DNA of 64,000 nucleotides from a virus. A program made the position numbers and the translations under genes. A model generated the notes under the pieces. It searched no databases. It saw nothing but the letters and a program-made list of their open reading frames with translations, and was not told the origin of the DNA. Below, one piece after another: positions 22,175 through 64,000 of this stretch. Position 1 is the first letter of the stretch. Each line of letters starts with the position of its first letter. The stretch spans positions 1 through 64,000 of the IMG/VR virus record IMGVR_UViG_3300045988_176357; one strand, 5' to 3'.

Positions 22175-22381
22175 AATTAAAGCTGTTTGACATTACAGTA
22201 TATACAGTACGATATACGTAACATCTCATGCATATAACGTATGTGCACACGTCCGGCAGGACAAGGCATCAGTGTGTACACGCATGAGAAGCACAATAAG
22301 GGTACAAATACGCGGAGCGTATCAGTACACTGGAGTGCCTGATCTGTGGCACTTTCTAGCGGCACATCCGAGGATACCACT

Positions 22382-23974
22382 ATGCGGGACTTATGGAATA
22401 CAGGCACCGAAGACTCTCCAATACTGCAGGGACAGGCAGGGAAACCCTTTTATCACTAGAAAGGTCCAAAGCTCAAGTTTCCCGACAACCCGGACAACAT
22501 CGTCGATAACAGCTGCTACTGCAGATATCCTTATATGCGCTATTTTTGGATCTACGCGAAAGTAGACTAGCAGACCCAGCAGCTGGACTTCTTCAGATTG
22601 TCCTTTCCTCAGGAAGCTCAGCAGGGCGACTGGTATGCGAACTACAGCATACAGCGTGCATAGGGCTGGCAGTGGGAAGTCATATAGCAGTACCACTATG
22701 CAGGGTGCGCAGCTCACAGAACCGATGTCGGCATATGGCAGACAGTACCTCTGTTCCCCTATGCCCAGCAGTGCGATGACGAGGACGACGAATAGATACC
22801 GATAAGCAACCTCACCTTCCCTAGCCCCTTGTATATAGGCTCCAAAGATGAGACCACAACTCAAGGGGGGCAACAGGTTGACACTCCATGCAGGAAGAAC
22901 ACAGGACCTGCTTCCCTTATGCGAATGCTTGTCTGTTCCTACAAGTGCTGCAACAATGTGCAGGGCTGCGGAACATAGGTAACCAATGACGACGATCCTC
23001 TGATCTGTCCTCCTGCAGGCAACTTCTGTTAGGCGTAGTTCAACGTCTCCTGGGAATATGACAAAGATGGCGCACAGAAGTTCTCATATGTGTCCATGCC
23101 ACTTAATGTGACATGCGGCTAGTGTCACCATCCCTAGCGCACAGATATCCTTTCCTGCACAACAGCCAGAATAAGGCTCTTCGGATAGCGCCTTGCTTTA
23201 GATGACTACAGCGTGTAGTCATGTGAGTAGTGCTGCAGGAAACTTAGGGACAGGGTGCTGTAGATGAAACCTCCTGTTGTGGACTGCAGAATATACAGGC
23301 TGTACGAATACCCAAAGGTGCCGCATGAAGATCCCGAAATAGGATGCACATGGGGAGAACCTGTTCTTGTATAGACTGCATAGGACTGGGCGCGTGTTCC
23401 ATATCAGATAGTCGGCAAGGGAGACGGCTGCCTTCCGCAGGGAGCGCATCAGCTGGACTATGTTCTCATATGCGACCAGACGAGCATGCAGGTAGTGGCA
23501 TATCAGTGGGTATAGTCAGCCGATTGCAATACCTAGCCCGATCCTCCGACAGACGGTCCTGTAGGATAGAGCACAAAAGGAACATAGTGCGACTGCGAGC
23601 CTATGCAGCAGGGCCAGTTCTTCCTTGATTAGGGATCGACACACGGTGACCGCAGCAATGAAGACCCTCCGTGCAACATTCCCGATGCTCCTCCATACAA
23701 GTACAGAAAGCTCAGCTCCAGCTGGCCTGCTCCATAGTTCGAACATACTCCGTTCGAGATCTACAGAGTCCGCCTTATAACGGACGGAGGCACAGGCTCC
23801 AACTAGAAGAGCTGCGGCATGTACCAGATGTAGACCGATGACAGCGGAAACATTCAGTGGCAGCGTGTCGCCAGTCACATGTACGACTATTAGATACTGT
23901 AGAACGGGTACATGGACAAGCTGGAGACGAGGTTCACATAGGAATAGGGTTCTTCTTATTATTACACTATAGTA
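22382..23974 (+). CDS. Cys-rich protein (TAG-recoded, about 35 in-frame TAG)
   Basis: Frame 2 is free of TAA/TGA from TGA 22340 to TAA 23972. First ATG is at 22382. Traced by coordinates. Confidence 0.5.
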
Positions 23975-24208
23975 AGGCAGGGCTGTGAGCCATAGGTGAA
24001 CTAGCAGGACAAGAGCCCGTTCGGCGACGACTGGCTGTAGGGACCTGCGGACAAGAACTGTTCCACATACTTCGCAACATACTGGAATCCGCAGGACGAC
24101 TGCAGCGGCAACACATAGAACCCGCCGCACACCACCGGCTGCACCAAATGGGACAGGCTCGGTCCGTTCAACTTCTCTCAGCTGAGTTCCCTCGGTCTGA
24201 TACCCGAC

Positions 24209-27200
24209 ATGTGGATACCTTATCAGTATGCATAGAACAAGTGGGGATACAAGTACATAAGAAGCAGCGGCGACGATTTCGGCTTCTGCGAGGATCCTCC
24301 TGCGCCGCCCAATATACAGAACGGTTTCTTTGTCATATCCATGTGGGCGCCTGACTGCGACTCATGCGGCAATGTGAACGGCTATCATGAACCATAGAGC
24401 TACAGACCTTAGCCGCAGTGTGCAATGATACAGCCCAATCTGTGCGAGGATCCGGTGCTTTAGCCGCTCGGCACAGGTTATCACCTGCACGTCACATCAA
24501 CATCTCAGGATTCGGATGTCACAGTAAGTCACAACTACTATCCTGTCGAGGACCAGAACGGCTATAACTGCACGATATCGCAGCAATAGGCAATGAAGTA
24601 CGAGTGCAATCTCGTATATGTCGTGTTCTCGGACAAGTTCGTCGACTACTGTCCGAGGTTCGAAGGCGGAATTGTGTTCAAGCCTGAAGACTCCACTCCC
24701 TATACGATATCCGGAGATGCATAGCCAGGCACATAGATAGAGGTCCAGTATGGATCTCAGAAGATCCTGGCCACAGTGCTGGCTGTGAACATGGATGCGG
24801 ACTACTGGTAGTAGCAATTCAAGGATGCGCAGATACAGTTCGATCCTTACTGCTGTGCCAGATACTACTATTACTATGTCAAAGTCCCATTGAAGGATCT
24901 GAACTAGCTTCCCTGTGTCAATCCGGACATGCAATGGCAGTTCGCAGGAAAGATTCCGTAGGCGTAGTTCATTCACTAGTGGATGTAGACGGACGTTTGG
25001 CTGTATGTGCAGCAGGAGAATACATAGCCGTATGCCATATTATGGAAAGCCGTATAGGAGAAGCTGTAGGGTGATGACCTCAAGATCACCGCAGCCATAA
25101 CAGGACAACATGTAAAAGATCCTGGCGTCGGCGCATATCTTGTTTAGGGCTGGGGCGCATAGTGCGAAGGTGAACAGGGCACATTGTCCGGCACAACGCC
25201 TCCTTAGTCCTGGGAATCTTCATTGCAGCCCATATCCGCTCCCAGCGCCGATGTGTATTAGGCTGCCGCAGCGTATGCAGGTTCGCAGAAACAGGACAGC
25301 TATACATAGTACTGCAAGACATATGACACTACAGCTGACTGTCAGCCCGCAGGTTCATAGGAAGTCTGCGCCACGTATGAAGACCCTGCAGTCTCGGGTC
25401 TGTACGCATTCAATGCTGCCACAGGCTAGTATGTGCAGGTCACAAGAAATGTTCCATAGGGCTTCTGCTAGGTCTTCTATTAGGAAGTCGCTGCCAAGTA
25501 CTGGTGTGTCCTCGGTTCAGATTTCAGGTACAACAGCAAGCCTGTGTACTATTCAGGCGTGCGCACTGAACAGGGCACGCCAAAGCTGATTTCCTTCGCA
25601 GGTACAGAATTGCAGGTATAGGAAACGACGCTGTAGCTGTAGAGCTGCTAGATCACAATTCAGTTCCCACTTACAGTGTACCCCGCGAAGAAGAACTTTG
25701 AGTAGCAGCTGAAGAACACAGAGCTGCAATTCGACTAGAACTGCTGTAACACATTCTCGTATTTCGGCTACAGCTACAGTTGCTCTTAGTTCTATCGGGG
25801 TGAAGGCCATTGCGGAGAGCCATGGCATTGGCCGACCAGGGACACATCTCAGTGTGCATCAAAGTGGTACTATATGGGAAAGATGCCGATGGCCACCTTC
25901 TACAGGAAATACCTTGCGCTTAACTGCTGGGTTCCTTTTGCTCCTTCCTCTGAGGACGACATCGGAGAAATCAGCTATTTCGTACAGGTTTCAGACAGCT
26001 CCAATTTCTGTTAGCCTGCGCCGCAACATGATGTCCCTCCATATATTTTAGGGCAGTGGTTGACGACTATCTAGCCTGATAAATGTGTGAATGGAGTTCC
26101 TGTAAAAGATGTATAGCAGTGTGTGCTTAATTATGCTCCTCCGCATTTATCGCCTTTTTAGGCCATGCCTCTGCTGATTGCAGCCGGTTGTACATGGCCG
26201 TATGAGTTCCAATCTTGTGATCCCGTCTATTGCATGGGTAACCGGGTGCTGCCCGGTGGTCTGTGGAGCCCGAATGAAGGCCTGGGCGGAAAGATACTTA
26301 TAGATTCACCTGATAACTGCTGCTCTGCATATTTCGTACGGAAGGACGTTACGTTATTCGGCGTAGCCATTAACTTTCCAGAGGCGAAAGGATACTTCAC
26401 AGGCAGGTTTGATACAGATACAGGATATCCGATATTCATCAATTTTGATGCTCCTCAGAATTCAGCCTCATCCAGGACAATACAGAAGGTGAACATAGAC
26501 GGCTCCGATGTGCGTTATATATTGTAGGAATACCCAAGATCGTATACAGAGCCGTCTTTATGCGGAAGAAGGATAGAGTTTCACCGGAGCTGCCTGCCAC
26601 AGGTCAAGTTCACATTGTTCTATTTGTAGTACTTGCCGTGCAAGCCTTATCCGACTCAGTACACAAAAGGCGATACGCAGACGCCGTAGTGGACATAGGT
26701 GCCGAAGGATCCCTGCGGTATCGATAAGATCTCCAACATTCCTGCAGGCGGCTGGTATGCCAAACCGAATCCCACAGCGGATGACGATCACGATCCGTAG
26801 CCGCTCGATCCCTGCGAGCCCTGGTACTGGGTTGTTCCTGTATGGCACTGTGAGGATGAGTAGCCTGCGGCTCCGACAACATTCCCGTAGGATCCTCCGA
26901 CATGGTAGTGCTGCCGCCAGATATACGTGTACTATCAGAAGATCAGCCCCGGAGATAAGCGGAAAGAGTACGATTCACAGGGCAACCTGATACAGAAGAA
27001 CTATTGCGACGTCCCTTGTGATGTCGACGGTAACGGCGTCGCAACATGGGCTCTTTCCGGTCCATATGTTCTGTACGTATAGGAGTGTCCTGATACACAT
27101 GACGGCATAAAGGAATAGGACATCCCGGGAGACGGCTTCTACTTGTCCACAGATATCACGCAGGGTTTCGGAGGTGCTGTGCCTGTACAGGACGGCTAGC

Positions 27201-28543
27201 TTAAGCCTTCCAGCTGCGACCCCTTCTATTACATTCACACAGAGATCCACTGCAAGGGCTAGGATATAGTGCCGCCTACGTGGTGTCCTCCTAACCAGCG
27301 GGTCAACTGGGATGTGTGCAGATGCAGAATCAAGGTTCTCAAGATAGGACCGATAAGAGGCAGGCTGCATTCATACGGCAGCTCATCCTAGTGGGCGTAT
27401 CTGCCGTGCAAGGACTATGCTCCCGGATTCAGTACAGCCAGAATAGATATACTTATAGGAGACAGCGTTGACGACAAGAGTCTCCGTGTTTCTTACTATA
27501 AAGGCGTGGCAAAGGCTGCCAACTATGAGTATGACTGCACAAAGATGGATTGTCCGTTTACAACCCTTGACAGCTACAGAAGGCGCTCTGCAGGGAGCTA
27601 CACCTACTACACTACAGTAGGTACAGGCGGGTAGAACGAATACGGACTCCCAAATATAGTGGCGTGGAACTACAGTTGGAGCGACGGACGCACACGGTAC
27701 TTCTATTGCAACCCGCAAGCCAGGGACGCAAGCATATACGTCGGCGTGTGTCTTGACAGCATGTGCTAGGTATAGCCGACAGACGAATAGATGCTCAGCT
27801 GGATAATAGGTGACCTGTCGGATGACTCAAGACTGGTGTCCAGTTATGATTTCCACACAGTGCACTACCACCCATAGGCTTACTGCAGCGATTTCGCCAC
27901 CAAATGGTGCGGATGCAATAATGTCGGTAACCGGAGCTGTAATGCCAATATCAACTCTTTCGTGTATACTACAGAGTATAGCTCAACTCAGACGACAACA
28001 GGTAACTGTACACAGCCGATAACCCATACTATGTACGAGGGCAGCTCTACAGAAGTGGTTTAGGTGTGTAACACTAATTACAGTGCAAATAGCGTAGACG
28101 TATATTTCCGTACTACGCAATGTCTGGGTTACTAGCCCGGCAGCTGGGACTGCTATACATAGTAGGAGTGTCAGCGATATGCTCCTTCCTATATTTTCAG
28201 TTTTTATACAGGCAAGCTGTAGGGCGACACATATACATCCATGTCGTGTGCCGATGCTCTGTGCGGCGATGGAGAGTTCATAGGATACGGCTCAGCAGGC
28301 TACTACGGAACGGGAACGAATAAGCCTTACTTTAGGTTGAGTGTGAACAGATCCTCAGGCTAGAACTATGCACAGATAACTGTAGACTTATCTCAGTACT
28401 CAGTCACGCAGAGTACAGAAGACTAGAGTACCTATACATGGGAGGACGGAGACTGTACGTACACAGATACATTCCACAACACAACCAACATTTCGCAGTA
28501 GATATCAGGCACATTAACCTTTAGAGTTACTTGTTAGGAGTGA
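24209..28543 (+). CDS. giant Cys-rich protein (about 1444 codons, TAG-recoded, about 60 in-frame TAG)
   Basis: Frame 2 is open from TGA 23996-98 to TGA 28541-43 except for TAG codons. Verified codon-by-codon backward from 26165 and spot-checked forward. First ATG is at 24209. Confidence 0.6.
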
Positions 28544-28549
28544 CAGCCA

Positions 28550-29617
28550 ATGCCTTGTTCATGCAAAAAGAAAAGCGACCTCAGTAAAGCGTCTTCTGTA
28601 TTTGTCCCGTCTAAAACGGCCTTTATGCCGGTCAGTCTTACCAGACACTACAAAGCACGTCTGCAGATGTCTGACTCTGCTCCAATCGCAGTGGTCTCCC
28701 CTGCATAGCTTGAGAAACAGCAGGCAGAGGCTCAGCCGGAATAGAAGACCTATCAGGACTCCCGTTATCCGTTCATATATGAGCCGGACAGCACCAAATG
28801 GGATTTCTCAGCTACTACAAAGCCGGATTAGTTGTGCATTAACTGCGCGATGAAACATATCGCTCTTGCGAACGTTCTTATATAGGGAGGCACATATCAG
28901 GATTATGTTGTGGCTGCCGGATAGCTTATGCTTGCAGGCGCTCATTACATGCAGCACAGTCATAACATGGCTCAGTATTGCCGTGTGCTGGCACACAGAC
29001 TGGTAAGGGATATGCGCGACAAGCAGAAGTGGCTTCCCATAATGCAGCTGCTTATGACCTATGCTATGAATCCCTCTGAGGATCTGCAGCCTTTTTGGGA
29101 CCAGGCGCAGGATATGGATGGACTTGGCTTCCTGCATGCCTAGATGCAGGGCTCATACACCGCGTCATTGGTGAATATGGGAGCAGCTTTTTCGTTGTTG
29201 TTCACATAGGTGTCTTATCTGGAGCTCAATAAAGGTTACGCTATAGGATACCTTACAAGAGCAGTCACTATTCCAATACCTGACTTAGGGTTTTCCATGT
29301 CGGATACACCGATGCAGAGGTACACGATACAGAAAGCCAGATAGGAATGGAAGATCATACAGGAGATGACGCAGGATTCTCCTTAGTACTATGAATGCAG
29401 GGACAGATTGCTGCATCTGATACATAATTATATTTCCATGTTTCTGGTGTGTGATAATTAGGTCAGACATGGAAGGGCAAAACGGACTGTGCGCCTGGTA
29501 CCGAATAAGGCGAAACTTGATCAGCTCAGCGACATCGATCTGACATAGAAGATGCGTGATTTCAGACAGAAGCAGCTTCAGGCACGCGCATCAAGCAGCG
29601 ACAGCTCTTCTTCCTGA
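28550..29617 (+). CDS. hypothetical protein (TAG-recoded)
   Basis: ATG 7 nt after the stop of the giant ORF (RBS taggag). Frame 2 is open to TGA 29615-17 with about 10 TAG codons. Contains the track ORF 28928..29143. Confidence 0.5.
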
Positions 29618-29797
29618 CGGCGTTTACAGAAGCTCCTTTTCCCTGTACACTGCATGGAAAAAGGAGCTTTTCCATAACAGACCTGCGCCTATAGCTGGGT
29701 TACATGTAGTAAGTCAGTGGCTGGATAAAAGCGATGCGCAGCTGCATAACGATTTTCTGTTTTCAGTATACCATAGAAGACATCCGAAGATAGCACA

Positions 29798-30154
29798 TCA
29801 GGCAGGCTTCCGATTCCGCAGCTTCCTAAGGAACCCGCACATAAGCCAGTCGATATAGTACGCAGGCACTTCGATCTCAGCGTCGGAGACGCCTGCGCCT
29901 TTCAGTCTGAACTGTACAGCGTGAAGGCACTCATGTGCGAGGGTGCCTATGTGTTCCGGATCACATGGGTCCAACTTCGGCATCCATATGACAATTGCGC
30001 TGCTCAGCTCCATGCAGACAGCATCCACATGGCTCCTAGGATCACCGGGATACGCCTTGTCCTTGCGCACCTCGCTGACAAACTCGTCGAAGTCGCCTAC
30101 ATACAGTACATATCTGCATCGAAACAGGGTATCATACAGCTTAACCTTGTGCAT
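29798..30154 (-). CDS. HExxH metallopeptidase-like protein (ImmA/IrrE-type size), standard code
   Basis: MHKVKLYDTLF..IGTLAHECLHAVQFRLKGAGVSDAEIE. RBS aaggag. No in-frame TAG. Confidence 0.5.
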   Translation of the reverse strand: MHKVKLYDTLFRCRYVLYVGDFDEFVSEVRKDKAYPGDPRSHVDAVCMELSSAIVIWMPKLDPCDPEHIGTLAHECLHAVQFRLKGAGVSDAEIEVPAYYIDWLMCGFLRKLRNRKPA

Positions 30155-30725
30155 TGAGCATCTCCTTCTCTCTGGCATCATACACGGCATAGTTCGTTGT
30201 CGCCCAGTCAAGATCCTCTTCCGTCTTATACAGTACTTCAACGCGCGGCTTGTCACAGTTGCTCAGATTAAGATACACGCTTGCAGGCGCAACAGGATTG
30301 ATCTTCGCGCACTCGACAAGCTTCCACGGAATGTCATAAGGAATGACAAGGTGTCCCCTCGGCAGTGACAGCTTCACGTACAGGCGACCTTCCTTCTCCA
30401 CAAACTTCCAGCCGCCCTTCTTCACGTACCAGCCGTTCAGCTTCTCTACGCACTCATCGTGGAGCTCATGCTCGAGCATCTTTATCGTGCGCTGTCTGGC
30501 TGTAGCAAGGAACGTGTCATGGTTCTTGCTTACACGTCCCTTCAGCATCCTTCTGTATCTGTGCGCTTCGTATGTGTCCAGCTGCTTATTGTGCTCGTGA
30601 CAGTACTGCAACATTTCATACACGACGTCCTTGAAGGTTTCCAATGCCCTGTGAAGCTTGTTGCTGATTCTGGTGCTGACTTCTGTCTCTGCTGTGAACT
30701 GTACGACTTTGATTTCGGGTACCAT
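30141..30725 (-). CDS. hypothetical protein, standard code (upstream partner of the metallopeptidase-like gene)
   Basis: Internal ATG with strong RBS aggag (MVPEIKVVQFTAETEV..). 194 codons with no TAG. Overlaps the start of the downstream gene. Confidence 0.45.
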   Translation of the reverse strand: MVPEIKVVQFTAETEVSTRISNKLHRALETFKDVVYEMLQYCHEHNKQLDTYEAHRYRRMLKGRVSKNHDTFLATARQRTIKMLEHELHDECVEKLNGWYVKKGGWKFVEKEGRLYVKLSLPRGHLVIPYDIPWKLVECAKINPVAPASVYLNLSNCDKPRVEVLYKTEEDLDWATTNYAVYDAREKEMLNAQG

Positions 30726-31050
30726 GAGTGCTCCTGCGTTGCAATGTGTTATATATACCTTATTATAAGTATAACAACAGAACATGAAAGGAGCTTGCAT
30801 GACAGACATCGTCATTCCACTCAGCACATAGTCGAACACGGACAATCTCGAACTCAGAATCGCTCTCAGATCCATATAGAAATACGCACAGAACGTCGGA
30901 AACATATGGATCTATACAGAGGCGGAACTTCCCTGGCTGCGCAATGCGAATGTAATCAAGATGGGAGATCCTGTGAGAGATCTCAAGGATACGAACCTCA
31001 TCAACAAGGTTCTCGCGGCGGCTCACAACAAAGACGTAGCATAGCGATTC

Positions 31051-31524
31051 ATGTTCTGGAGCGATGATCAGCTTCTCACAGGCCCTCTTGATCTGGACAA
31101 GGCTCCTGTTGTGTACAATGTCAGATCCATGCCTCAGTTCGCAGGAGCTCCCAATAAGTGGTACAACAGAATGGAGCACACGCTTAACTACGTGAAGAAG
31201 CATACAGGGCACGAGCTGAAACACAATTACGACGCACATACTCCGCAGCCCTACACGAAGAGCAAAGTCATAGAGGTCTTCGAATCAGTTCCGTACAGGG
31301 AGCAGCCCGGCTTCTGCATCAACACCATTTACTATGGCATGCTTGGCGTACCTCCTGAAGTCGAGCAGACGCAGATCAAACACACCTTCGAGAAGGGCAC
31401 CATGGCTATCCCTGCAAAGATGCTGACATATGCAGGATACGATGACGCTTCCTGGATGCGCGGCGGAGCCTACTTCTTCCTCGGCATGTTCTTTGATCTC
31501 AGCAAGTATGAGGCGCCTAAATGA
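31051..31524 (+). CDS. hypothetical protein
   Basis: Intact 157-aa ORF. Stop overlaps the next start (ATGA). Confidence 0.5.
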   Translation: MFWSDDQLLTGPLDLDKAPVVYNVRSMPQFAGAPNKWYNRMEHTLNYVKKHTGHELKHNYDAHTPQPYTKSKVIEVFESVPYREQPGFCINTIYYGMLGVPPEVEQTQIKHTFEKGTMAIPAKMLTYAGYDDASWMRGGAYFFLGMFFDLSKYEAPK

Positions 31525-33035: not shown

Positions 33036-33064
33036 CGCTGTGTCCTTAGGAAAAAGGACATGCC

Positions 33065-33688
33065 ATGAACAGACGCGTACTGCTGTTTCTGCTTAAGCTG
33101 TTGTTCAGTTACAAGCGGAATAAAGCCAAAGTTATAGATGCCATAGGCAAGATCCGTATCAGCCTGTTTCCCATGTGGGTGCTGTATCAGCCTTTCCCTT
33201 ACAAAGTGACCGGACAGGACATACAGATGGTGCAGAACAGGATACAGCCCGGTGACATAATACTCACAGGCTGCTCATGGAAAAAGCTGTAGGATCTTGT
33301 GGTGCCCAACAGGTACAGGCTGACACACGCAGGTATCTATGTTGGTGACAATACAGTAGTGCATGCTGTGACGAGCGGTGTATAGTAGCTGCATATTGTG
33401 GACTTTCTCAGATGCGACCGCGTATGTGTGCTGCGTGTCGAAGGCGACCATGAAGCTGCGATAAGACGCGCCATACGTTTCATAGGATAGCCTTATGACT
33501 TTGATTACAGACAGGGCTAGGACGCTCTGTACAGCTTCTAGCTGTGCGCATGCTGCTACAGGTAGCTGTAGTTCCAGAGGAAACCGCTGAAGCTGTTCTG
33601 GTTTACGTTGCCGTCCATATGTGGCAAGTACTATTACGACAAGTCCTTCGTGGACTCCGAATACTGCAAGGTGATATATGAGTGCTGA
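33065..33688 (+). CDS. permuted papain-fold / NlpC-P60-like peptidase (putative cell-wall hydrolase), TAG-recoded
   Basis: PGDIILTG..HAGIYVGDNTVVHA motif after an N-terminal signal-like helix. Frame 2 is open to TGA 33686-88. Confidence 0.5.
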
Positions 33689-34250: not shown

Positions 34251-34322
34251 GGCAGATAAATGAGTTCACATTATTGCTGAGTAGGCAGAAAACTACATCA
34301 GTAGGCAGAATATAGGATCAAC

Positions 34323-34724: not shown

Positions 34725-34731
34725 GACATAT

Positions 34732-38767: not shown

Positions 38768-38771
38768 TGTC

Positions 38772-46440: not shown

Positions 46441-46449
46441 GGAGTATGA

Positions 46450-46878: not shown

Positions 46879-46913
46879 TGCCTATTACATAGAAAATATA
46901 CACCGACGCGTAG

Positions 46914-48422: not shown

Positions 48423-48442
48423 GAAGGACAAGGAGACGCCCC

Positions 48443-55154: not shown

Positions 55155-55947
55155 ACTAGCTGCCGAAATCAAATCCAATATCCAAGCTTGTATAGAGCTA
55201 CCAGAGTAAGGTGAAGAGTCCCTTAGGGCAGTCTTTACTGCTCGCAGGTATTGGATTGCCTGCTGCTTATATGCTTAAGCGCCCTGTTAACAAGCTGTTG
55301 AAACATTTGGGAAGAGATCCCAGAATTAACGCGGCTCTTGGAACACGTCCTGCGTAGATGGAATAGGGCCTGGACTAGATGTAGAACTCATGGGTCGGCA
55401 AGCATGGTCTGCCTCTGATGCTTGGTCTGACTCCAGCTGCTATTGCTCTGGCTATGAATGTCACTCCAGGGCAGCCTTATTCCGGACTCACTTCATGGGC
55501 TGTAAAGAAGAAAGCCGCACTCAAGAAGATTGCTTCTTTATGGTAGGCTGACGGATATCAACCGCAGATAGACTTCTCGCAGACACTGAATCCTAATACA
55601 GTTGTCAGCATGATACAGCATAATCCATACCTGAAGGATTCACCGTATTAGCGTAATCTTGGTACATCTATTATCACAGCAGCTAAAGCATACGGTAACT
55701 AGACGACGCTTGGCAGCATTTATGACAGCGCTGTCAACAAGTTCGATACCAAGCTCAGATTTGAGGGTGTTACAGATAAAGCTGTCAAGAGTCTTGTTCA
55801 GGGTTCTCTGGCAGGTATGTTTACAGATGTGGTCGGTTCCGTGATGGGGCTGCCTTAGCCTGTAAGAGGTCAGGTTGCCAATACTGCCGGATTTGCACAG
55901 GCTCTGTACTCGATACTGAATTAATGTATACGTAATAAAGGGATACA

Positions 55948-56247
55948 ATGAAATACTCTGATGTTTATAGACAGATGAACAAGGAAGCAGGACTTGGGTA
56001 GGCTCTGGCAAACGGAGCATATCTGATCGCGGCTGTGACTATGCTGACTCCTGCTGTTGGCGGCGCCGCTGCCGGATATGCAGCAGGCAAACTTACGACA
56101 CCTGGCGTTCAGGACGTATAGAACCTGTAGAAGTAGCACAGGCTTGCCAGACTCAAAAGAGACAATGAAACACAGCGTCTTCTCTAGCAGCGTGAAGACA
56201 CCAATGCAGCCTACAGTAAGAAAGTCAAGCCGATGAGGTTTGCCTGA
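55948..56247 (+). CDS. small membrane protein (TAG-recoded)
   Basis: Frame 1. MKYSDVYRQMNKEAGLG(Q)ALANGAYLIAAVTMLTPAVGGAAAGYAAG. Confidence 0.3.
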
Positions 56248-56673
56248 TGCATAGTATCGGACCATAGGAAGCACTTCTGATGCAGCTGGACCAGGAATAG
56301 GAACCGGCGCTGACAGTCGACACTTCGCAGTCCATGTGGGACTACAGAAACAGGAATACATACAATGGAATTCCTGTCGAGCAGACTGCACAGGATCTGA
56401 AAGTCAATAATGCATAGTAGTTGTAGAGAGCTCTTCAGCTGAAGCAAGGCGTTGTCGTCTGGACAGGCTATCTGTCACCTTAGTACGACGACAAGAAATC
56501 TGTTTAGCAGTACAGAGATATCAGACAGAAGTAGGCTTAGGGTCTCATTCGTGTCTACAGCTAGGACAGACAGTTCTGCCCTCAAATCAATAAATTTCTT
56601 GTGCTTGTTACATACGCATCTCTTAGCTATTAGCTGAATCCGAGACTTGAATACCTCAAATAGGAACAGAACA

Positions 56674-57672
56674 ATGAGTGATCCGATTTTGCCGAATACC
56701 ATAACGACTGCGCCGTCTGTCAAATCCGCAGTCAACACAATAAATCCGCTTTCATTCCTGTTTTCAGGCAGAGATTACGTGCCGTCATGGTTCATAAATA
56801 TGTTCCGTGGAGCTAAGGGAAGCGAGTGGGAAACAACAGGTGCGCCTGCCAAGTCCGCACATATTGCCGCAAAGGTGCTTGCCGGAGCCGGTGCACTTGG
56901 GCTTGGAGCATGGGGAGCAAGACATCTTATGCACTCCATGAAGCTGGATGCCATAGATAACGCCAATTCAGCTGCTACTGCAGGTGGAAAGCTGTAGAAG
57001 TTGTACAAAAGACCTACAGGTGCCATGGCTGGATATACGCAGGCGGAACAGCGCAAAGCGAAGCAGCTGTAGGAATCTGACAGCAGAGGTGTTGAGAAGA
57101 AAGCCTTTGTAGGTAATGCTGTAAAGTATACCGATCCGTATTCGTTTGCTCTTGGTGTTGTACCTCCTGCCGCATCCTTGCTCGCTCTTGTGGCGTCCTT
57201 TAAGAATGCTGATAAATATTACGATACCAAACTGTCCAAGAAACTTGATCGGGACATTGCCAATGAATAGGCGGAGCGTGCCAGAATCTCCAAGCGCAGA
57301 ATACTTAAGGGACGCGGAGTTCAGGACCTGATTGAGCAGGAAGCCCCTGTGACTAAGACAGCTTCCGAAAAGCAGGGTGTGTCAGGGCCTGTGGTAAGCG
57401 CACTTGGCGGAGCTGTTGCTCTGCTTGCTGCCGCTTCATTTGTAGGCGGGTTCAAGTATGCTCGGAGAAATGATCCGCAGACAGTCAAGTTCAAGGCTTA
57501 CAAAAAGGGCATATAGGCATATAATAAAGCAAGAATAGCCTAGGAGAACGTCGAGACAAAGCCACTCGATCCCAGGCTTATAGAGCTTTTCAATGCCAAC
57601 ATCAACAATAAGAAGCGCCCGCAGGAAATGACGCCTGTTAACAGCACTTCCTACAGAGATGTGTTGATGTAA
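56674..57672 (+). CDS. hypothetical virion protein (TAG-recoded)
   Basis: RBS aggaac. Frame 1 runs to TAA 57670-72. Contains track ORF 56647..56997. Confidence 0.45.
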
Positions 57673-57684
57673 TAAGGAGCCGAT

Positions 57685-58416
57685 ATGCCGTAGTTGCAGG
57701 GAACAGTCAATAATATCCAGCGACAGAAGATGCAGTTCATCTCCGATGTGCTGGATCCTACACCAACTGTCATGTACAGAGCTGATGACTATAAGACTCA
57801 GCGCAAGTTGATCTTTGAGCGTGTTAAGAATGCTGTTCAGAAGAGATTCCCTCTGTACAATGATAAATATGTACTGTAGGTGTAGAACCTCGACTACGCA
57901 GATCCATAGGAATTCTCTTATGCTGACCAGAAGAAAGCTGTTCTGTAGGGGACGTCTGTAGGCAGAAGACTTCGTGGCAGCTATGTGCTCAGAGATGCTG
58001 CAACTAATCAGGTGGTCTCAAGAACGAAGCCGCAGACGCTCCTGAAAGTTCCATACATGACAGATCGAGGCACGTTCATCAACTCAGGTCATGAGTACAC
58101 ATTCAATAACATCATGCGTCTGTAGCCTGGTGTGTATACACGCAAGAACAACGATGACGACATTTCAGCACAGTTCAATGTGAAGAAAGGCACTGGAGCT
58201 GGATTCAGCATGACATTTGTTCCCAGCAAAGGTGTCTTCCAGATAAGCAGAGGCACTGCAAACGCTCCTGCATATACTGTGCTGAAAGACTTAGGTGTTA
58301 CAGATTAGCAGATGAAACAGGCGTGGGGCGACTAGCTGTACAATACCAATAAGTAGTACGGTACCGGGTAGAAGGCACGCATAGCTTCCAACAGAATCTA
58401 CAATTACAACTCATGA
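57685..58416 (+). CDS. RNA polymerase beta subunit N-terminal fragment (split RpoB homolog, TAG-recoded)
   Basis: KVPYMTDRGTFINSGHEYTFNNIMRLQPGVYTR aligns to bacterial RpoB [57 protein letters not shown] aligns to [26 protein letters not shown]. Confidence 0.65.
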
Positions 58417-59249
58417 GCGTTGCGTCCGATATAGCTAAAGGTATAGTAACCAGATTACCATAGCACTGGGACTGGAAACGCGCTCTTACATATGCCGGTG
58501 TGACAGGAGGCGGAGCTGCGGGTTTGTCTTTGCTGATAAGCAAGCTGCGCAAACACGATAAAAGAAAACGCACACTCAATGCTATTGTATCAGGTTTGTC
58601 AGGAGCTCTCGGCGGTACTGCGCTTTATACAGGTCTTCAGAACTTCATATAGCTAACAGGAGGGCTTCCTCTTGGAGGTTAGAACCAGCTGCCTGCAGTC
58701 GATACCGACGACAAGGCACCAGGTAAACACTATATAGTGTATATAGGTGGAATGAACACTGCTCCCAGGTATGCCAAGAAGCTGATACCGGGTGCAAATA
58801 TGGCTGTGCTTGACTGGGGATAGCAGGACAAAGCTGTTAACTTTATAAACAGTATCAGAGCTAAAGATAAGGTAACACTTATAGGTCACTCTGCAGGAGG
58901 AGGTACAGCAATAGCTGTAGCCGACAAAGTCAATAGACCTGTAGACAAATTGATAACACTCGATCCTGTAGTGTTAAATCCTGTAAAGCGTCTGTTGTAG
59001 ATGTTCAGAGTAAGAAAGCCTAAATCAGCTGTTACAGCATAGAACTACATACCTTAGGACTACAAACTTAAGGACAGCAGTAACGGATTCCTGTCAAAAA
59101 ATAATCCTATATTGCTTAGACAGGTTCCAGGAATGAATAACACAGTTATTCCGAATTAGGCACATGGGTTGTGGTCTACCGGCTACAGAGCTACGCCTTA
59201 GTCAGCATAGACCTTATTGAATGTAAAAAAGAAGGTAGTATCGATATGA
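58413..59249 (+). CDS. alpha/beta-hydrolase (GHSAGG nucleophile elbow) with N-terminal TM helix (TAG-recoded)
   Basis: ATGA overlap with the upstream stop. Frame 0 was traced by coordinates. VTLIGHSAGGGTAIAVA. Confidence 0.5.
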
Positions 59250-59674
59250 AAAAGTACGCACAAATATGTAAGGACGCCGGTGTTGCTTCGTAGGTTGCAG
59301 GTAATGCCATACAAGCCGCCCTGCCTCATGCAATTGTCAACTCCAATGTACATTAGGACATTAAACTGGGCGCTCTCGGAGCTTTCGGTGCAGCACAGCT
59401 TGTAGCAGCGGCAGCAGCTCTGGCGACGCCTACGAGATCAAACAAGCAACAGCTTAAAGCCGGTATCTCTCCATGGCATACTCTTGGTAATCTGCTAGTA
59501 CCTGGAATGGCTTCTTACAATTTGTACAAGAGGTACGGTAATGCTATGGCTCAGGAATCAGCAGCCGCAAAAGAACGCGACATCCAAGGTGCGCTCAAGG
59601 CGACCAAAGACAAAGACGCAAATGTGAGGTAGGCAGCAAAAGCCTATCTTAAGATGCGTAAAGCGAAGGCATAA
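59246..59674 (+). CDS. small Ala-rich membrane protein (TAG-recoded)
   Basis: Frame 2 runs to TAA 59672-74. Confidence 0.35.
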
Positions 59675-59939
59675 GCAGAGGACACAATGACGTACAAGCA
59701 AGCATACGCTAAAGTGGCTTAGCTCAAGTCTCTTTAGGAGCAGAACAAGTAGAACACTCCTATGACCTACATGCAGGCGCACAGAAGAATGCAGCGCAGC
59801 ATCAACGACATGCTCAAACCTCACGAACCCGATATTGCACAGGCAAAACCTGACAACAAGCTTACAGTAGATGCTCCTGAAGGATCGCCTTCCTAGACAC
59901 TTGGCAATGTAAAGTAAGCTTACACACAGCACATTCAAT

Positions 59940-59990
59940 GGGCCGCTTCCCTTCAAAACTGGCAAGGGAGGTGGCCCATTTGTATTATAT
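59940..59990 (+). terminator. rho-independent terminator
   Basis: gggccgcttccctt..aagggaggtggccc followed by a T-rich tract. Confidence 0.65.
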
Positions 59991-60041
59991 GCACAAACAG
60001 ACACGGGGTCTGCAAAACAAACGAACTGAAAGGTATTGAAA

Positions 60042-60404
60042 ATGCAAATCAAATCCTTGGATGGAGTCATGCACGAAGTCTCACCTGCTTAGGTATAGCG
60101 GGTGTACAAGATGCTTCCGGCGCATGCCTCAAAGCAAATGAAGGTCTAGGAGGATGTAGAGCTCAATTAGGTGCTCGAAACGTTCGACTGGAAGTCGCAA
60201 AAGTACATGTAGAAGGCGGGACATAACATCAAGCGTATCGTGTAGCTGTAGGCATTGCCGACTACCGAAGATGATGTGAAAAGCGCACTGGCGCATGTTC
60301 TGTGTCACGGATGCCCTGAACGGATAGCGGATGCTCTGTATGAGTCCATCTAGTTCTAGGTATCAAGATTTATGAAACATCTCGTCGACGAATACATGGA
60401 GTAA
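60042..60404 (+). CDS. hypothetical protein (TAG-recoded)
   Basis: Frame 0 runs from ATG 60042 to TAA 60402-04. Confidence 0.35.
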
Positions 60405-60954
60405 AACGAATATGGATATAATGGGATTGCTGGTGCCTATTCTTTCAGGCTCACCTGAGATAAAGGGCAAGTTGGAATCGGTGTTCGGACAGCCTGTCGA
60501 TCACATAAGCAAATGTGTGAGTCAGTTCATGGACGGCATAAAGAATGGTCCGGGTTTAGTGGATAAGTAGCTGCAGAAACAGCAGAGATTTATGCACATT
60601 TACCAGAGCGGACTGCGCATGGGCTTCCAGGATTACTAGGCGTAGATAGCCGCAGCCGATTGCGCTGGTTATCCCGTTATAGACGTTGCAAACTCCTTCG
60701 CTTAGCGGCGAGGATGGAACTGCACAATATAGGAAATATAGCAGCTCCATGACAAAATCATGCCCAGATTCATGTAGATGGGCAGGAAAACCGGACTGTT
60801 TCAAACTGAAAAGAAAACCTAGACAGCTCCAAAAGGGATCCCGAGCGTGCAGGTTACAGGAAGTGCGAAATAGCCTCCGTGGAGAACGGCGGAACAGCCA
60901 AAAGGTGCACCTGTTCCACCTGTAAAATAACAGCACCTGAAAATGAGGTAAGAA

Positions 60955-61497
60955 ATGAGTTACAATGATACGAATTGCGGTCACACCGGATGGGGTGTGG
61001 GTCTGTCTGCCATAATCGGCGGCGCTCTTGGATACTGGGCAGGTCGTTCCAGCGGTCCCGGAGGGTTTGGAGGGTACGGATGTTACGGCTTCCCGGCAGG
61101 GTATGCTGTGGCTGCTTAGAACGGTCACTGTTCGACATGCTTCGAGCAGGGTGTTGAGTCCGGTCAGACTCTCGCAGGTCTGAACTACATCGGCCAGCAG
61201 GTTGCTTCTAACAGCAGAGACATCGCCAACTCGATGACAGCTCTCAGCAACCAGCTCAACAATCAGACAGCTGCTATCCAGGCGCGTTTCGATGCGCTCA
61301 ATCAGCAGAAGATCGCGGATCAGGCTGCCTAGATCGCGGCTCTGCGTACGCAGAACGTTGTCGGTCTCAATGCTGCTGCTACCAACATGCAGCTCACGAG
61401 TCTGAACGATAAGGTCAGCTCTATCATAGCTGGCTGCGCAGTCAGGTCTGTCAATGCATGTCCGACGAACAACTGCTGCGGCTGCTCTAATCAGTGA
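60955..61497 (+). CDS. Gly-rich N-terminus plus coiled-coil protein (TAG-recoded)
   Basis: Frame 1. MSYNDTNCGHTGWGVGLSAIIGGALGYWAG..; coiled coil with NQLNNQTAAIQARFDALNQQK. Confidence 0.4.
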
Positions 61498-61892
61498 TAA
61501 CCGATGAGGGAGGTTTCCGCCTCCCTCGCAACTAAGATGGAGGTTCACAATGGCATGCTGCGCATTGGTAAAGAACTGCGGACGCTGGCAAGTGTATGCC
61601 ACTACAAAGGCTACAGGAGCCCAATATTACAGGATTTATGCTTGCCTCTGCAATCTGCAGAGATGCCCGCAAATAACCTGCGATATAGTGTCAGCCGGAG
61701 CCTCCGACTCCAGTGAAGCCACGTTGGTTACAAACTGCGGAGCGATTATCCCGCTGGTCAAGAGCTCTACACTGGCCCCGGTAACTGTGGGCTAGCTTCC
61801 GGCCGGAACCAGTATGGACGTTGTCGTGAAGACAGTCAACCAGATCCCGCAAGGTGTGGTTATTGGAGTCTGAGGTAATCTCAGGTCCGCAA

Positions 61893-61927
61893 AGCCCTCT
61901 TACTGCAACAGGTAAGGGGGCTTTTTT
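61893..61927 (+). terminator. rho-independent terminator
   Basis: gccctcttactgcaacaggtaagggggc followed by a T-run. Confidence 0.6.
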
Positions 61928-61987
61928 GTGCTCTGCTCTTACGCGCTAAGCTTTTTGATATACTTCAGCTACAGAAAGGAAACCTTC

Positions 61988-64000
61988 ATGGCTCCATTTA
62001 ATACCTCCGGCAAAGCTCCCAAGAACGCGCAAGACTGGGTCAGGTAGCTTCGCTTTTCCAACGATGTAAACATGAGCACTGTCGGTGTGGATACAGACAG
62101 AGTCACTCCTTAGCTCATGCTCGCTTCCAGCAAGAAACTTCTCGGAATCTCCAGAGGCTAGCAGGAAGGAGACGCGAAGGACTCGCTCAGATACCAGAAA
62201 GTGTTCGGACCTGTAGAGTACTTTGCGTAGAGAATACAGAAGGACGGAGGCAGCGTAGCCAGATCAATGCTGTGGAAGGCTACCAACAGAGGCAACGTCG
62301 ACTTCATCAACTCAGGCAGTCTGTAGCCGCACGTCAGTGCAGTGTTCCACCAGAGTAATCTTTCGCAGTTCGTCGACAACAGCACACCTCTCGACGGCAT
62401 CGACAACTCCATGAAGGTCACACGTGTCGGTGAGGGCGGTATATCCAGCGACTAGGTTGCGCCTATTGAGATGCGTCTTGTGCAGCCTTCTTACTATGGG
62501 TACATCGGTTCGGCTCGTACTGCATAGCGCTGTTACAGAGCCGATACACTCATTCTGACCAAGAAGGGCTGGAAGCCTGTAACACAGATGTCCATGGACG
62601 ACGAGTTCGCCACACTCATAGACGGCAGACCTGCATGGCACAGACCTATAGCGCTCAACAGCTACGACCATGATGGACCTATGTACTGTTACAACGGTCG
62701 CTACATCAAGTTCTCCGTCACTCCCAGTCACAGGATGTATGTAGCACAGGATAAAGACTACAGCATACAGTACATCGATCAGGTCTTCGGCAATACAGTG
62801 AAGGTTCTGTGCGCTGTCGACAAGGCGTCCAAAGTCGACTAGAAGCAGAGGTGGTTCTACTTGCCGCAGGTATAGTCCCCAGCAGCCAACTGCAAGAACA
62901 TATAGAAAGTGGACATTGTCGACTTCGCATAGTTCATGGGCTGGTATCTCAGCTAGGGCAGCCACGACTTACGCACAACCAAGCGAGGACAGAATTACAG
63001 AGTCCGTATTACACAGTCTCCTACAAAGAATCCTGAGCACTATGCACAGGTGCTGTAGCTTATGGACAGACTTCCGTTCACCTACAGCATAGACAGCAGA
63101 GACGGATCAGCCAATATTACAATCCTTCGGAAGCAGCTATACATGTATGTCAAACAGTTCGGACACAGTGAAGACAAGTTCATCCCTGAGTGGATCTTCC
63201 ATGCTCCAACTGCAGCGAGATGGGCATTCGTCGATGCGATCCTTAAGGGTGACGGCAAAGGCGCCAGAGATCTGTGCACCATTTCAAGCAGACTCGCAAA
63301 TGACTTTGCAAGGCTCATGTTCGAGCTCGGACAGTCTGTCAATATCATAAAAGAGCTGCAGAAATACGAGCACACAAAACGTCAGGTCAACCCCTAGGAA
63401 GATTTCCTGTACACAGTTACCTGGCACAGAACATTCTAGTCCACACTGCAAGGGCTTGGATAGAGATCAGGATATTATGTATAGGAATATAAGGGCAAGG
63501 TCTACTGTCCCACTGTCCCGGGAGGTCTCGTATATGTGAAGCTTCCGGGAGCTGCAAAAGGTTTCTGGTGCGGCAACAGCCCCGGCATCACAGGTTACAT
63601 GACAAAGAACGTCATGAAGGGTACAGACGGCAAGCTGTACCAGAACATGCTCAATGTTCGTACAGGTAAGATAGAGCCTGTTGACTCACAGAAAGCTGCA
63701 GCCTCGGTAGTCACAACCAACTAGTACATGAACACGGACGACGAATACGTGTACGCAATGGGCGGTCCCAGAGGCGTACGCATTGTCAAGAAGTCCGATA
63801 TCGACTACATACTTCCTCACTCGGATGATGCGTACTCAATGGCAGCCAACTACGTGCCCATGTATTCAGGCATCAAGTCGATGCGTCTGCTGATGGGCTG
63901 TTTGCATCCGGATACACCTGTGCTTGTTGTAGACAAAGACGGATACACAGACATCATCCCTGCAAAGAGAGTGGGACATGTCGGCACCATATATCTTGCA
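61988..64000 (+). CDS. RNA polymerase beta subunit C-terminal-half fragment containing an intein (partial, continues past the window; TAG-recoded)
   Basis: SNLSQFVDNSTPLDGIDNSMKVTRVGEGGIS..RLVQPSYYGYI aligns to RpoB [39 protein letters not shown]. Downstream ANYVPMYSGIKSMRLLMGCLHPDTPV aligns to [27 protein letters not shown]. Frame 2 contains track ORFs 62588, 63062 and 63536. Confidence 0.7.
62531..63577 (+). mobile_element. intein with LAGLIDADG homing-endonuclease domain inside the RpoB-like gene
   Basis: Begins at Cys (CYRADTLILTKKGWKPV..), the Hint N-terminal block. Internal WAFVDAILKGDG is a LAGLIDADG motif. Ends ..GFWCGN followed by Ser. 349 codons, in frame. Confidence 0.6.

What the first reader, a model, noticed from the sequence alone, without database searches (positions are those of the whole stretch)
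22340..64000. TAG is a sense codon across the ~42-kb late/virion block
From about 22.3 kb to the window end almost no conventional ORF exists, yet single frames run for hundreds to more than 1400 codons without TAA or TGA while carrying TAG every 20-30 codons. Examples: 24209-28543 with about 60 TAG, 35885-38767, 41652-43316, 51151-53025 and 53022-55154. The translations across TAG are coherent: collagen Gly-X-Y repeats continue in register through TAG (GPQG-TAG-TGATG), RpoB and patatin motifs align across TAG, and paralogous fiber repeats read LPKG-TAG-KGDTG versus LPKGDKGDTG. TGA and TAA still terminate these genes. The minus-strand patatin gene (49296-50108) is also recoded, so this is not a strand artifact. 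The amino acid is most consistent with Gln (Q fits Gly-X-Y and Q-rich contexts; TAG to Gln is the known phage reassignment), but this is inference.
Basis: seen in the sequence. Interest (0 to 1): 0.9.

Follow-up and report, generated by a model that had tools for sequence, protein, structure and literature searches.

The report
Gut phage reads TAG as glutamate
In the late genes of this roughly 190-kb human-gut phage the stop codon TAG is an ordinary sense codon, but comparison with relatives shows it stands for glutamate, not the glutamine assumed for recoded phages, and the phage carries its own miniature glutamyl-tRNA synthetase beside the recoded block.

Summary
From 22.3 kb to the window end, 32 genes (31 on the + strand, plus the minus-strand patatin gene) form long ORFs only if TAG is read through. 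They hold 407 in-frame TAG codons, 3.2% of all codons. The 16 genes in 1-22 kb contain no TAG and all end in TAA or TGA.

TAG behaves as glutamate.
- Late genes lack about 3% Glu codons, which matches the TAG frequency.
- A standard-code relative has GAG/GAA where the window has TAG.
- In 22 distant portal homologs the TAG columns read E 200, D 103, Q 60, and four columns read E in 21 of 22.
- A likelihood test that calls all 61 sense codons correctly calls TAG as Glu, 21 log10 units ahead of Gln.

A TAG-free gene at 19635-20705 (-) encodes a 355-aa bacterial-type GluRS with intact HIGH and KMSKS motifs and a shrunken anticodon-binding region. In all six lineages examined it lies divergently next to the first, giant TAG-rich gene.

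Most likely this GluRS charges a phage tRNA(CUA) with Glu. That tRNA was not found in the window or in the reachable flanks. No paper in the searched library reports TAG=Glu in a phage. Public databases translate these proteins with Gln at TAG.

The parts
1..16500 (+). Code-neutral early/replication block (NrdD, NrdG-like Fer4_12, RNA ligase, TnpB, small unknown genes). No in-frame TAG; all stops are TAA or TGA.
   Evidence: 12 + strand genes with 0 TAG. Pfam labels come from precomputed hits.
16605..16682 (+). tRNA with anticodon CAU (Met/Ile2 type), the only tRNA in the window. It is not a suppressor.
   Evidence: ARAGORN. Rfam tRNA 59.4 bits, anticodon loop CUCAUAC. 86% identical copy near the GluRS of relative L013.
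17160..22192 (-). TAG-free minus-strand module, transcribed divergently from the late block: 244-aa PKD-like protein (21440-22174), GluRS, 310-aa LRR-like protein (18710-19642), LamG-domain protein (17160-18671).
   Evidence: 0 TAG in 4 genes, stops TAA/TGA. Pfam and NCBIfam hits.
19635..20705 (-). Phage-encoded miniature glutamyl-tRNA synthetase (355 aa), the proposed charging enzyme for the TAG decoder.
   Evidence: NCBIfam gltX_bact 1.1e-59 against glnS 1.3e-5. PDB GluRS hits down to E=2e-34. AlphaFold model pLDDT 93.8; Foldseek TMq 0.81-0.84 to bacterial GluRS. HIGH=HIGN, KMSKS=LSKR, and about 100 aa fewer than usual in the CP and anticodon-binding regions.
22193..22381 (.). Divergent intergenic region. 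This is the boundary between the TAG-free genes and the TAG-recoded genes.
   Evidence: Gene coordinates.
22382..28543 (+). First late gene: giant Cys-rich protein of 2053 codons with 97 in-frame TAG.
   Evidence: 69% identical to its L013 homolog over 1686 aa.
28550..35475 (+). Seven late genes (28550-29617, 30784-31524, 31521-33035, 33065-33688, 33678-34247, 34732-35475, plus unannotated gaps) with 3-12 TAG each.
   Evidence: Homologs in L009, L015 and L013.
35885..49039 (+). Tail-fibre-like and collagen-repeat genes (35885-38767, 38772-39479, 39679-40740, 40789-41319, 41652-43316, 43329-43931, 43948-44643, 44716-46440, 46878-48422, 48443-49039) with 1-26 TAG each. TAG sits in the X position of Gly-X-Y repeats.
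49296..50108 (-). Patatin-like phospholipase gene with 6 in-frame TAG, showing that recoding is on both strands.
   Evidence: Pfam PF01734, E=1.5e-11, residues 22-176. In the PlpD alignment TAG lies opposite Asp twice.
50083..61873 (+). Virion and RNAP-associated late genes: 50083-50694; portal-like 51151-53025 (30 TAG); 53022-55154 (26 TAG); 55271-55924; 55948-56247; 56247-56681; 56674-57672; RpoB N-terminal fragment 57685-58416; alpha/beta hydrolase 58413-59249; 59246-59674; 60412-60930; 60955-61497; 61550-61873.
61988..64000 (+). RNA polymerase beta-like gene, cut by the window end, with 18 TAG. It is interrupted by a 349-aa intein at 62531-63577.
   Evidence: With the intein removed, E. 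coli beta 429-569 matches at E=7e-7 and TAG aligns to the Glu of the ETPEG motif. Intein coordinates. The homolog in L015 carries Intein_splicing, LAGLIDADG_3, Rpb2_6 and Rpb1_2 hits.

Best explanation
The window is the first 64 kb of a roughly 190-kb human-gut jumbo phage that uses two coding regimes. Genes in 1-22.2 kb contain no TAG, either in frame or as a stop, so the host can translate them under the standard code. All 32 genes from 22.3 kb onward use TAG as a glutamate codon: 407 TAG codons, 57% of all Glu codons there.

The TAG-free region encodes a miniature bacterial-type GluRS directly beside the recoded block. The proposed mechanism is as follows.
1. Early in infection the phage makes this GluRS and a phage tRNA with anticodon CUA, which must lie outside this window.
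2. The GluRS has a reduced anticodon-binding region and so tolerates the CUA anticodon. It charges that tRNA with Glu.
3. Late mRNAs, which otherwise terminate after a few dozen codons, then become translatable.

This would tie virion and lysis gene expression to the phage's own decoding apparatus.

Shown: TAG is read as sense; it corresponds to Glu; TAG partitions between early and late genes; the GluRS has a GluRS fold and intact catalytic motifs; its position is conserved. Inferred: that a tRNA(CUA) exists; that this GluRS charges it; that recoding has a timing or gating role.
For: 1. TAG is a sense codon: ORF statistics with TGA-sense and TAA-sense controls and homology running across TAG.

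2. TAG is Glu.
- Composition: Glu codons are 5.50% of early and 2.45% of late codons, while TAG is 3.24% of late codons. Gln rises from 3.33% to 4.98%.
- TAG plus GAR is 5.5-6.5% in the window, L015 and L017, matching GAR at 5.4% in the standard-code relative L016. CAR stays at 4.4-5.8%.
- In L009, 29-30% of GAA/GAG codons lie opposite a window TAG, against 1.7% of CAG.
- In L016, window TAG aligns with GAG 14, GAA 3, GAC 10, CAG 3.
- Distant portal homologs at the TAG columns read E 200, D 103, Q 60. Columns 279, 374, 393 and 434 read E in 21 of 22.
- The BLOSUM likelihood test sense codons correctly and calls TAG as E, 21 log10 units over Q. With the low-TAG relatives only it is 20 units over D.
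- Among codons at least two mutations from TAG, GAA appears 48 times and CAA 10.
- TAG aligns to the Glu of the RNAP beta ETPEG motif and to Asp in PlpD patatin.

3. The GluRS: family, fold and motif results are.

4. Linkage: the six GluRS clade members whose neighbourhood could be read (40-98% identity) all sit divergently next to a giant TAG-rich gene, for example 159 TAG in 2384 codons in L134.

5. Precedent: TGA-recoded Jade phages carry a standard-code 'code change module' of TrpRS, RF1 and a suppressor tRNA upstream of recoded lysis genes (Borges et al. preprint).
Against: - No tRNA(CUA) was found in the window, in 7 kb upstream, in about 10 kb downstream, or within 10 kb of the GluRS in five relatives. 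About 110 kb of the genome could not be read.
- No aminoacylation or proteomic data exist.
- In closer relatives that are themselves TAG-rich (L013, L015, L017), CAG is about as frequent as GAR opposite TAG. The reverse tally (relatives' TAG against window codons) slightly favours Q, by 1.6 log10 units. I attribute this to the single-transition TAG<->CAG path and to the scarcity of remaining GAR codons, but that is interpretation.
- GluRS genes also occur in about 100 other IMG/VR contigs, whose local coding density looked normal under the standard code in a crude ORF-coverage index. A phage GluRS alone therefore does not prove a role in recoding.
- In L135 the GluRS gene itself has one TAG, at codon 300.
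- TAG is not enriched near gene starts: 8 genes have a TAG within 10 codons against 8.6 expected. This gives no extra support for a gating design.
Confidence: 0.72

Rival explanations
1. Ordinary genetic code 15. TAG is read as glutamine by a phage tRNA-Gln-like suppressor charged by the host GlnRS, as in crAss-like and Lak phages.
For: It is the only TAG reassignment described for phages. CAG is the commonest non-TAG codon opposite TAG in the closest relative L013, at 15 against 11 GAR. The reverse tally marginally favours Q.
Against: Against the low-TAG and standard-code relatives the counts are Glu 59, Gln 10. Conserved-E portal columns coincide with TAG. The Glu deficit equals the TAG frequency while Gln shows no deficit. 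The validated likelihood is 21 log10 units worse for Q. In L013 the TAG/CAR exchange odds ratio (14.5) equals the E/Q ratio (15.1), while TAG/GAR (5.6) resembles synonymous pairs (2.8-4.8); these ratios are computed from the table.
Confidence: 0.06
2. TAG is Glu, but the phage GluRS is a general translation-boosting auxiliary gene, as aaRS genes are in many huge phages. The suppressor is charged by the host GluRS or by some other route.
For: About 105 IMG/VR stretches encode GluRS relatives, and in a crude ORF-coverage index their local coding density looked normal under the standard code. No tRNA is adjacent to the GluRS.
Against: From my own recollection, not checked here: bacterial GluRS depends strongly on the UUC anticodon, and amber derivatives of tRNA-Glu are largely mischarged with Gln in E. 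coli, so a host enzyme would be a poor charger. This clade's enzyme is specifically shortened in the anticodon-binding region. It keeps a fixed position at the head of the recoded block in 6/6 lineages despite 40-98% sequence divergence.
Confidence: 0.17
3. Indirect pathway. The phage enzyme acts as a non-discriminating GluRS on a tRNA-Gln-like CUA suppressor, and the host GatCAB converts Glu-tRNA to Gln-tRNA, so the final residue is Gln.
For: Non-discriminating GluRS structures (3afh, 2cfo) are among the best fold matches.
Against: The same comparative evidence that excludes Gln as the inserted residue. Discriminating GluRS structures (1j09) match equally well.
Confidence: 0.03
4. The + strand frames are not genes. 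The region is either decayed, or is coded by the long standard ORFs on the minus strand.
For: Minus-strand standard ORFs of up to 494 codons cover 41% of the region.
Against: 20 of the 24 are codon-aligned mirror frames, explained by rare TTA, CTA and TCA codons. The sense frame is 68% conserved against 39.5% for the mirror frame. Only the + frames have Pfam, PDB or homolog matches. The four unmirrored minus-strand ORFs gave no Pfam hit.
Confidence: 0.01

Closest known systems
TAG-recoded gut phages using genetic code 15 (crAss-like, Lak, phAss-1; Borges et al. 2021/22; Peters et al. 2022)
   Same: In-frame TAG is confined to late, structural and lysis genes. Early and replication genes are compatible with the standard code. 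TAA and TGA are kept as stops. The habitat is the human gut.
   Different: Those phages read TAG as Gln, which proteomics has validated for two crAss-like phages. They are thought to use the host GlnRS, and a dedicated aaRS is reported as absent. Here TAG corresponds to Glu and a dedicated GluRS is present.
Jade-phage 'code change module' (TrpRS + RF1 + tRNA(UCA)) for TGA to Trp
   Same: A phage aaRS written in standard code lies immediately next to the recoded late genes.
   Different: The codon and amino acid differ. In this window neither the suppressor tRNA nor a release factor accompanies the synthetase.
Eukaryotic nuclear codes 30 (peritrich ciliates) and 31 (Blastocrithidia), in which UAG/UAA mean Glu (my own knowledge of the NCBI code tables)
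   Same: UAG is assigned to glutamate.
   Different: Those are whole-genome codes of eukaryotic cells, and UAA is reassigned too. Here only UAG changes, only in a virus, and only in part of its genome.
GluQRS / YadB, the truncated GluRS paralog
   Same: A short GluRS-family enzyme with a reduced C-terminus.
   Different: The HMM score is far below the cut-off (109.5 bits against 276.7) and the fold match is weaker (TMq 0.53 against 0.84 for true GluRS). The phage enzyme keeps a compact C-terminal helical domain that GluQRS lacks.

Membership tests
Stop-codon-recoded phage (TAG sense) | Coding density collapses under code 11 and is restored by reading TAG as sense, more than by reading the other stops as sense | tested here: met
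   14% under the standard code, 101% with TAG as sense; 62% with TGA and 28% with TAA as sense
Stop-codon-recoded phage (TAG sense) | Homology to known proteins continues across in-frame TAG | tested here: met
   Patatin, RNAP beta and 44 portal homologs
Stop-codon-recoded phage (TAG sense) | The recoded codon is concentrated in late/structural genes and early genes are code-neutral | tested here: met
   0 TAG in 5039 early codons; 407 TAG in 12558 late codons; all 32 late genes have at least 1 TAG
Stop-codon-recoded phage (TAG sense) | Phage-encoded suppressor tRNA with anticodon CUA | tested here: inconclusive
   None in the window or the reachable flanks.
Genetic code 15 (TAG = Gln) | TAG positions align with Gln in standard-code homologs | tested here: not met
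   Glu dominates
Bacterial-type glutamyl-tRNA synthetase | Class I catalytic core with HIGH and KMSKS motifs and the conserved N-terminal RFAPSPTG motif | tested here: met
   PF00749 at 2.6e-41. RFAPSPTG, HIGN and LSKR present. Foldseek TMq 0.84 to 1j09.
Bacterial-type glutamyl-tRNA synthetase | Reaches the NCBIfam gltX equivalog cut-off and has a full anticodon-binding domain (PF19269) | tested here: not met
   202.6 bits against a cut-off of 289.95. PF19269 not detected. The C-terminal region is about 60-70 aa shorter than in bacterial GluRS.
Bacterial-type glutamyl-tRNA synthetase | Charges tRNA with glutamate | not testable with these tools
   Needs an aminoacylation assay
GluQRS (YadB) | Matches the queuosine_YadB equivalog and fold | tested here: not met
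   109.5 bits against a cut-off of 276.7; TMq 0.53

The most novel reading that the evidence does not exclude
A whole clade of human-gut jumbo phages uses a UAG-to-glutamate code, so far known only from some eukaryotic nuclear codes. It is installed by a phage-borne, anticodon-tolerant mini-GluRS together with a tRNA(CUA). That pair would be a natural orthogonal aaRS/tRNA system that overrides the default Gln fate of amber suppressors in bacteria.
Probability: 0.6. Interest if true: 0.9.

Novelty: new variant of a known kind. Interest (0 to 1): 0.85.

Why it matters
- Stop-codon recoding in phages is known, but the survey by Borges et al. states that only TAG to Gln and TGA to Trp are seen. 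It explains this by host GlnRS and TrpRS being easy to hijack. A TAG=Glu phage carrying its own synthetase would break that rule. It would show that phages can install an amino acid that the host machinery would not put at UAG.
- There is an immediate practical consequence. Gene callers that switch to code 15 put Gln at about 3% of residues in these proteins. Database entries P0130 and P0136 are exactly such TAG-to-Gln translations. This distorts charge, structure prediction and peptide-mass searches for a phage that is widespread: one of its ORFs is indexed in 319 blocks of the assembly collection.
- A compact GluRS/tRNA(CUA) pair would also interest people who build orthogonal translation systems.

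Tried and rejected
- Megablast of 7-12 kb pieces against INPHARED phages found no match.
- PHROGs gave almost nothing for the 10 late proteins scanned.
- The family tool refuses DNA references that contain TAG.
- Suppressor tRNA hunts all failed:
  - ARAGORN at default and relaxed thresholds, and with introns allowed. Only low-score noise inside coding sequence.
  - Rfam at gathering threshold and at E<=5.
  - A scan for 5-bp-stem / NTCTARN-loop hairpins found none in the window.
  - Flanks from -7.4 kb to about +73 kb, and 10 kb around the GluRS in relatives.
  - An IMG/VR scan for a tRNA-Glu-type anticodon arm carrying CUA gave 29 hits. Two are tRNA-Leu(UAG) genes on the other strand, the rest lie in no predicted tRNA, and none is on the relative's contig.
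- The GluRS as a single query, and the GluRS clade alignment, found no clade member in IMG/VR; the best hit was 37% identical.
- Looking up the TnpB protein in the hope of finding dispersed copies gave no new genome region.
- TAG enrichment near gene starts, expected for a translation gate, was not found: 8 observed against 8.6 expected. TAG is spread evenly along genes.
- The ORF-coverage recoding index is unreliable for high-GC loci.
- Rejected ideas: that the tRNA(CAU) at 16605 is the decoder (its anticodon loop is CUCAUAC); that the mirror-frame minus-strand ORFs are genes.
Full report
**Source.** The window equals bases 1-64000 of an ENA human-gut metagenome scaffold, ERZ28595212 LIJU14-1 scaffold_51 (192,159 bp). 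Locus L008 from that record is identical to window 1-13137. The single difference is that a 100-N scaffold gap at about 18657-18664 is collapsed in the window. GC content is 49%. Near-identical genes occur on many gut contigs of 50-200 kb. Megablast found nothing in INPHARED.

**Checking the observation.**
- On the + strand of 22341-64000, ORFs of at least 150 codons cover 14% of the sequence under the standard code and 101% with TAG as sense. The controls give 62% with TGA as sense and 28% with TAA as sense.
- The longest frames rise from 347 codons to 2066, 965, 725, 695, 627 and so on.
- I delimited 32 late genes, 31 on the + strand plus the minus-strand patatin gene. They hold 407 in-frame TAG in 12,558 codons. 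Every gene has at least one TAG, and all end in TGA or TAA.
- Sixteen confident genes in 1-22.2 kb (5,039 codons) have no TAG and end only in TAA or TGA.
- The read-through translations are real proteins:
  - Patatin, PF01734, E=1.5e-11, spanning three TAG.
  - An alpha/beta hydrolase.
  - Collagen-like Gly-X-Y runs that continue through TAG.
  - An RNAP beta-like protein that, once its 349-aa intein is removed, aligns across the splice junction to E. coli beta 429-569 with E=7e-7.
  - A portal-like protein with 44 homologs of 38-78% identity.
- The long standard ORFs on the minus strand are artefacts. 20 of 24 are codon-aligned mirror frames, made possible by rare TTA, CTA and TCA codons. The mirror of the portal gene is 39.5% conserved against 68% for the sense frame.

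**Which amino acid: composition.** This gave the first hint. Glu codons fall from 5.50% in early genes to 2.45% in late genes, a drop of 3.05 points, while TAG is 3.24% of late codons. Gln rises from 3.33% to 4.98%.

**Which amino acid: codon-level alignments.** I obtained DNA of relatives and aligned codon by codon.
- In the IMG/VR relative L009 (portal 68% identical, few TAG), the window's TAG lies opposite GAA 24, GAG 18, TAG 19, GAT/GAC 8, CAA/CAG 6 and AAA/AAG 6. Of L009's GAA/GAG codons, 29-30% face a window TAG, against 1.7% of its CAG codons.
- L016 is a standard-code relative. TAG is 0.12% of its codons, and the database protein equals the table-11 translation. There the window's TAG faces GAG 14, GAA 3, GAC 10 and CAG 3. 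In the same genes its GAR content is 5.4%, which matches TAG plus GAR in the window (5.7%), L015 (6.5%) and L017 (5.5%). CAR stays at 4.4-5.8%.

**Which amino acid: portal family.** In a MAFFT alignment of the portal family, the 22 homologs below 50% identity show E 200, D 103 and Q 60 at the 30 TAG columns. Columns 279, 374, 393 and 434 read E in 21 of 22. Closer homologs show a Q/E mixture at the same columns, but those Q residues are artefacts. Database entries P0130 and P0136 are exactly the TAG-to-Q translations of loci L015 and L017, with 18 and 23 TAG respectively.

**Which amino acid: likelihood test.** A BLOSUM62 likelihood classifier run on these alignments assigns all 61 sense codons correctly. 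It assigns TAG to Glu, 21 log10 units ahead of Gln. Using only the low-TAG relatives, Glu is 20 units ahead of Asp. Relatives compared with L016 also come out as Glu, with smaller margins.

**Which amino acid: conserved sites.** TAG aligns with the Glu of the RNAP ETPEG motif, and twice with Asp in PlpD patatin.

**A caveat on the amino-acid call.** In TAG-rich close relatives (L013, L015, L017), CAG is about as frequent as GAR opposite TAG, and the reverse tally slightly favours Gln. Exchange odds ratios computed from the table resolve this. In L013, TAG/GAR is 5.6, like the synonymous pairs GAT/GAC (2.8) and AAA/AAG (4.8). TAG/CAR is 14.5, which equals the E/Q ratio of 15.1. TAG to CAG is also the single-transition neighbour. 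Among codons at least two changes away from TAG, GAA outnumbers CAA 48 to 10.

**The synthetase: identity.** The precomputed Pfam hit tRNA-synt_1c led to gene 19635-20705 (-).
- It is a bacterial-type GluRS: NCBIfam gltX_bact 1.1e-59 against glnS 1.3e-5, PDB GluRS hits to E=2e-34, and Pfam PF00749 only.
- It keeps the N-terminal RFAPSPTG motif, the HIGH motif (HIGN) and the KMSKS motif (LSKR).
- At 355 aa it is about 100 residues shorter than usual. The CP/zinc insertion is missing, as it also is in some short bacterial GluRS. The stem-contact and anticodon-binding regions are cut down, and a C-terminal helical remnant is conserved.
- The AlphaFold model is confident, with pLDDT 93.8. It superposes on bacterial GluRS with TMq 0.81-0.84, against 0.53 for YadB.

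**The synthetase: distribution and position.** A clade of 354-385-aa homologs (39-98% identity) exists only in metagenome assemblies. In all six neighbourhoods that could be read (window, L010, L013, L014, L134, L135) the gene lies divergently next to a giant TAG-rich gene. Examples are 117 TAG in 1827 codons, 121 in 2473 and 159 in 2384. The gene is TAG-free in the window. In L135 it has one TAG, at codon 300.

**Mechanism and its gaps.** The best-supported model is a phage-borne decoding system, the GluRS plus a tRNA(CUA), that makes late mRNAs translatable. This parallels the TrpRS/RF1/tRNA module of TGA-recoded Jade phages. From my own knowledge, not tested here: bacterial GluRS depends on the UUC anticodon, and amber suppressors tend to be charged by GlnRS. 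That would explain why reading TAG as Glu needs a dedicated, anticodon-tolerant enzyme.

The missing piece is the tRNA. The window holds only a tRNA(CAU) at 16605-16682, and no suppressor was found in any reachable flank or by pattern scans. No release-factor gene appeared among the window's annotated genes.

**Literature.** The library holds no report of TAG=Glu in a phage, nor of a phage GluRS tied to recoding. Borges et al. state that only TAG to Gln and TGA to Trp are observed. The phAss-1 paper reports no dedicated aaRS. Crisci et al. noted occasional TAG/E alignments in Lak phages but kept Gln.

**Verdict.** This is a new variant of a known phenomenon. My confidence that TAG is sense is about 0.99, that it is Glu about 0.9, and that the GluRS is the charging enzyme about 0.65.

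Noticed in passing
window 62531-63577: A 349-aa intein (starts CYRADTLIL, ends FWCGN followed by S) interrupts the RNAP beta-like gene one residue after the TAG that aligns with the ETPEG Glu. The homolog in L015 is a 2299-aa beta/beta'-type product with Intein_splicing and LAGLIDADG_3 hits.
   Followed up: partly
window 9121-9417, 2214-2455, 1645-1986: Group I intron matches of 54.1 bits (above gathering), 40.3 bits and 19 bits lie around the NrdD/NrdG and RNA-ligase/TnpB genes. Related strains carry an HNH endonuclease ORF splitting NrdD (L004-L006).
   Followed up: no
window 9572-10702: A TnpB/IS605 OrfB gene (376 aa) sits inside the phage early block. It is present in some strains (L003, L007, L131) and absent at that site in others (L004, L005). 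Another copy lies in the late region of L101.
   Followed up: partly
window 14851, 14936, 15896 (+): Three copies of a 26-31-nt hairpin motif, GTCCTGAGCAnGACGTTAAACTGCTC, lie in a 1.4-kb stretch with no called genes. Two are followed by T-runs. A 92-93% identical copy lies downstream of the GluRS in the distant relative L014. It may be a terminator or a regulatory RNA element.
   Followed up: partly
window 16605-16682: The tRNA(CAU) is 86% identical to one near the GluRS of L013, although the flanking proteins are only 55-69% identical. Its role (Met or Ile2) is unknown.
   Followed up: partly
window about 18657-18664: The source scaffold has 100 N plus a 7-nt duplication here, which the window collapses. 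A Logan contig (L002) appears to have about 23 more bases, so the 5' end of the LamG gene (17160-18671) is probably mis-joined in the window.
   Followed up: partly
L135 8142-9215: In one relative the GluRS gene itself contains an in-frame TAG at codon 300 of 357. Full-length enzyme there would require prior suppression, which suggests a possible feed-forward loop or a functional truncated form.
   Followed up: no
proteins P0130, P0136 (loci L015, L017): Public protein collections hold these phage proteins translated with TAG as Gln (code 15). If TAG is Glu, about 3% of their residues are wrong.
   Followed up: yes
window 29798-30262, 30141-30911, 50552-51028, 59558-60088 (-): TAG-free minus-strand ORFs lie in the gaps between + strand late genes, or are not mirror frames of them. 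They have no Pfam hits, so it is unclear whether they are genes.
   Followed up: partly
window 22382-28543: The first late gene encodes a 2053-aa Cys-rich protein with no family match. Giant genes occupy the same position next to the GluRS in all relatives, but they are not detectably homologous between the window and L010 or L014.
   Followed up: partly
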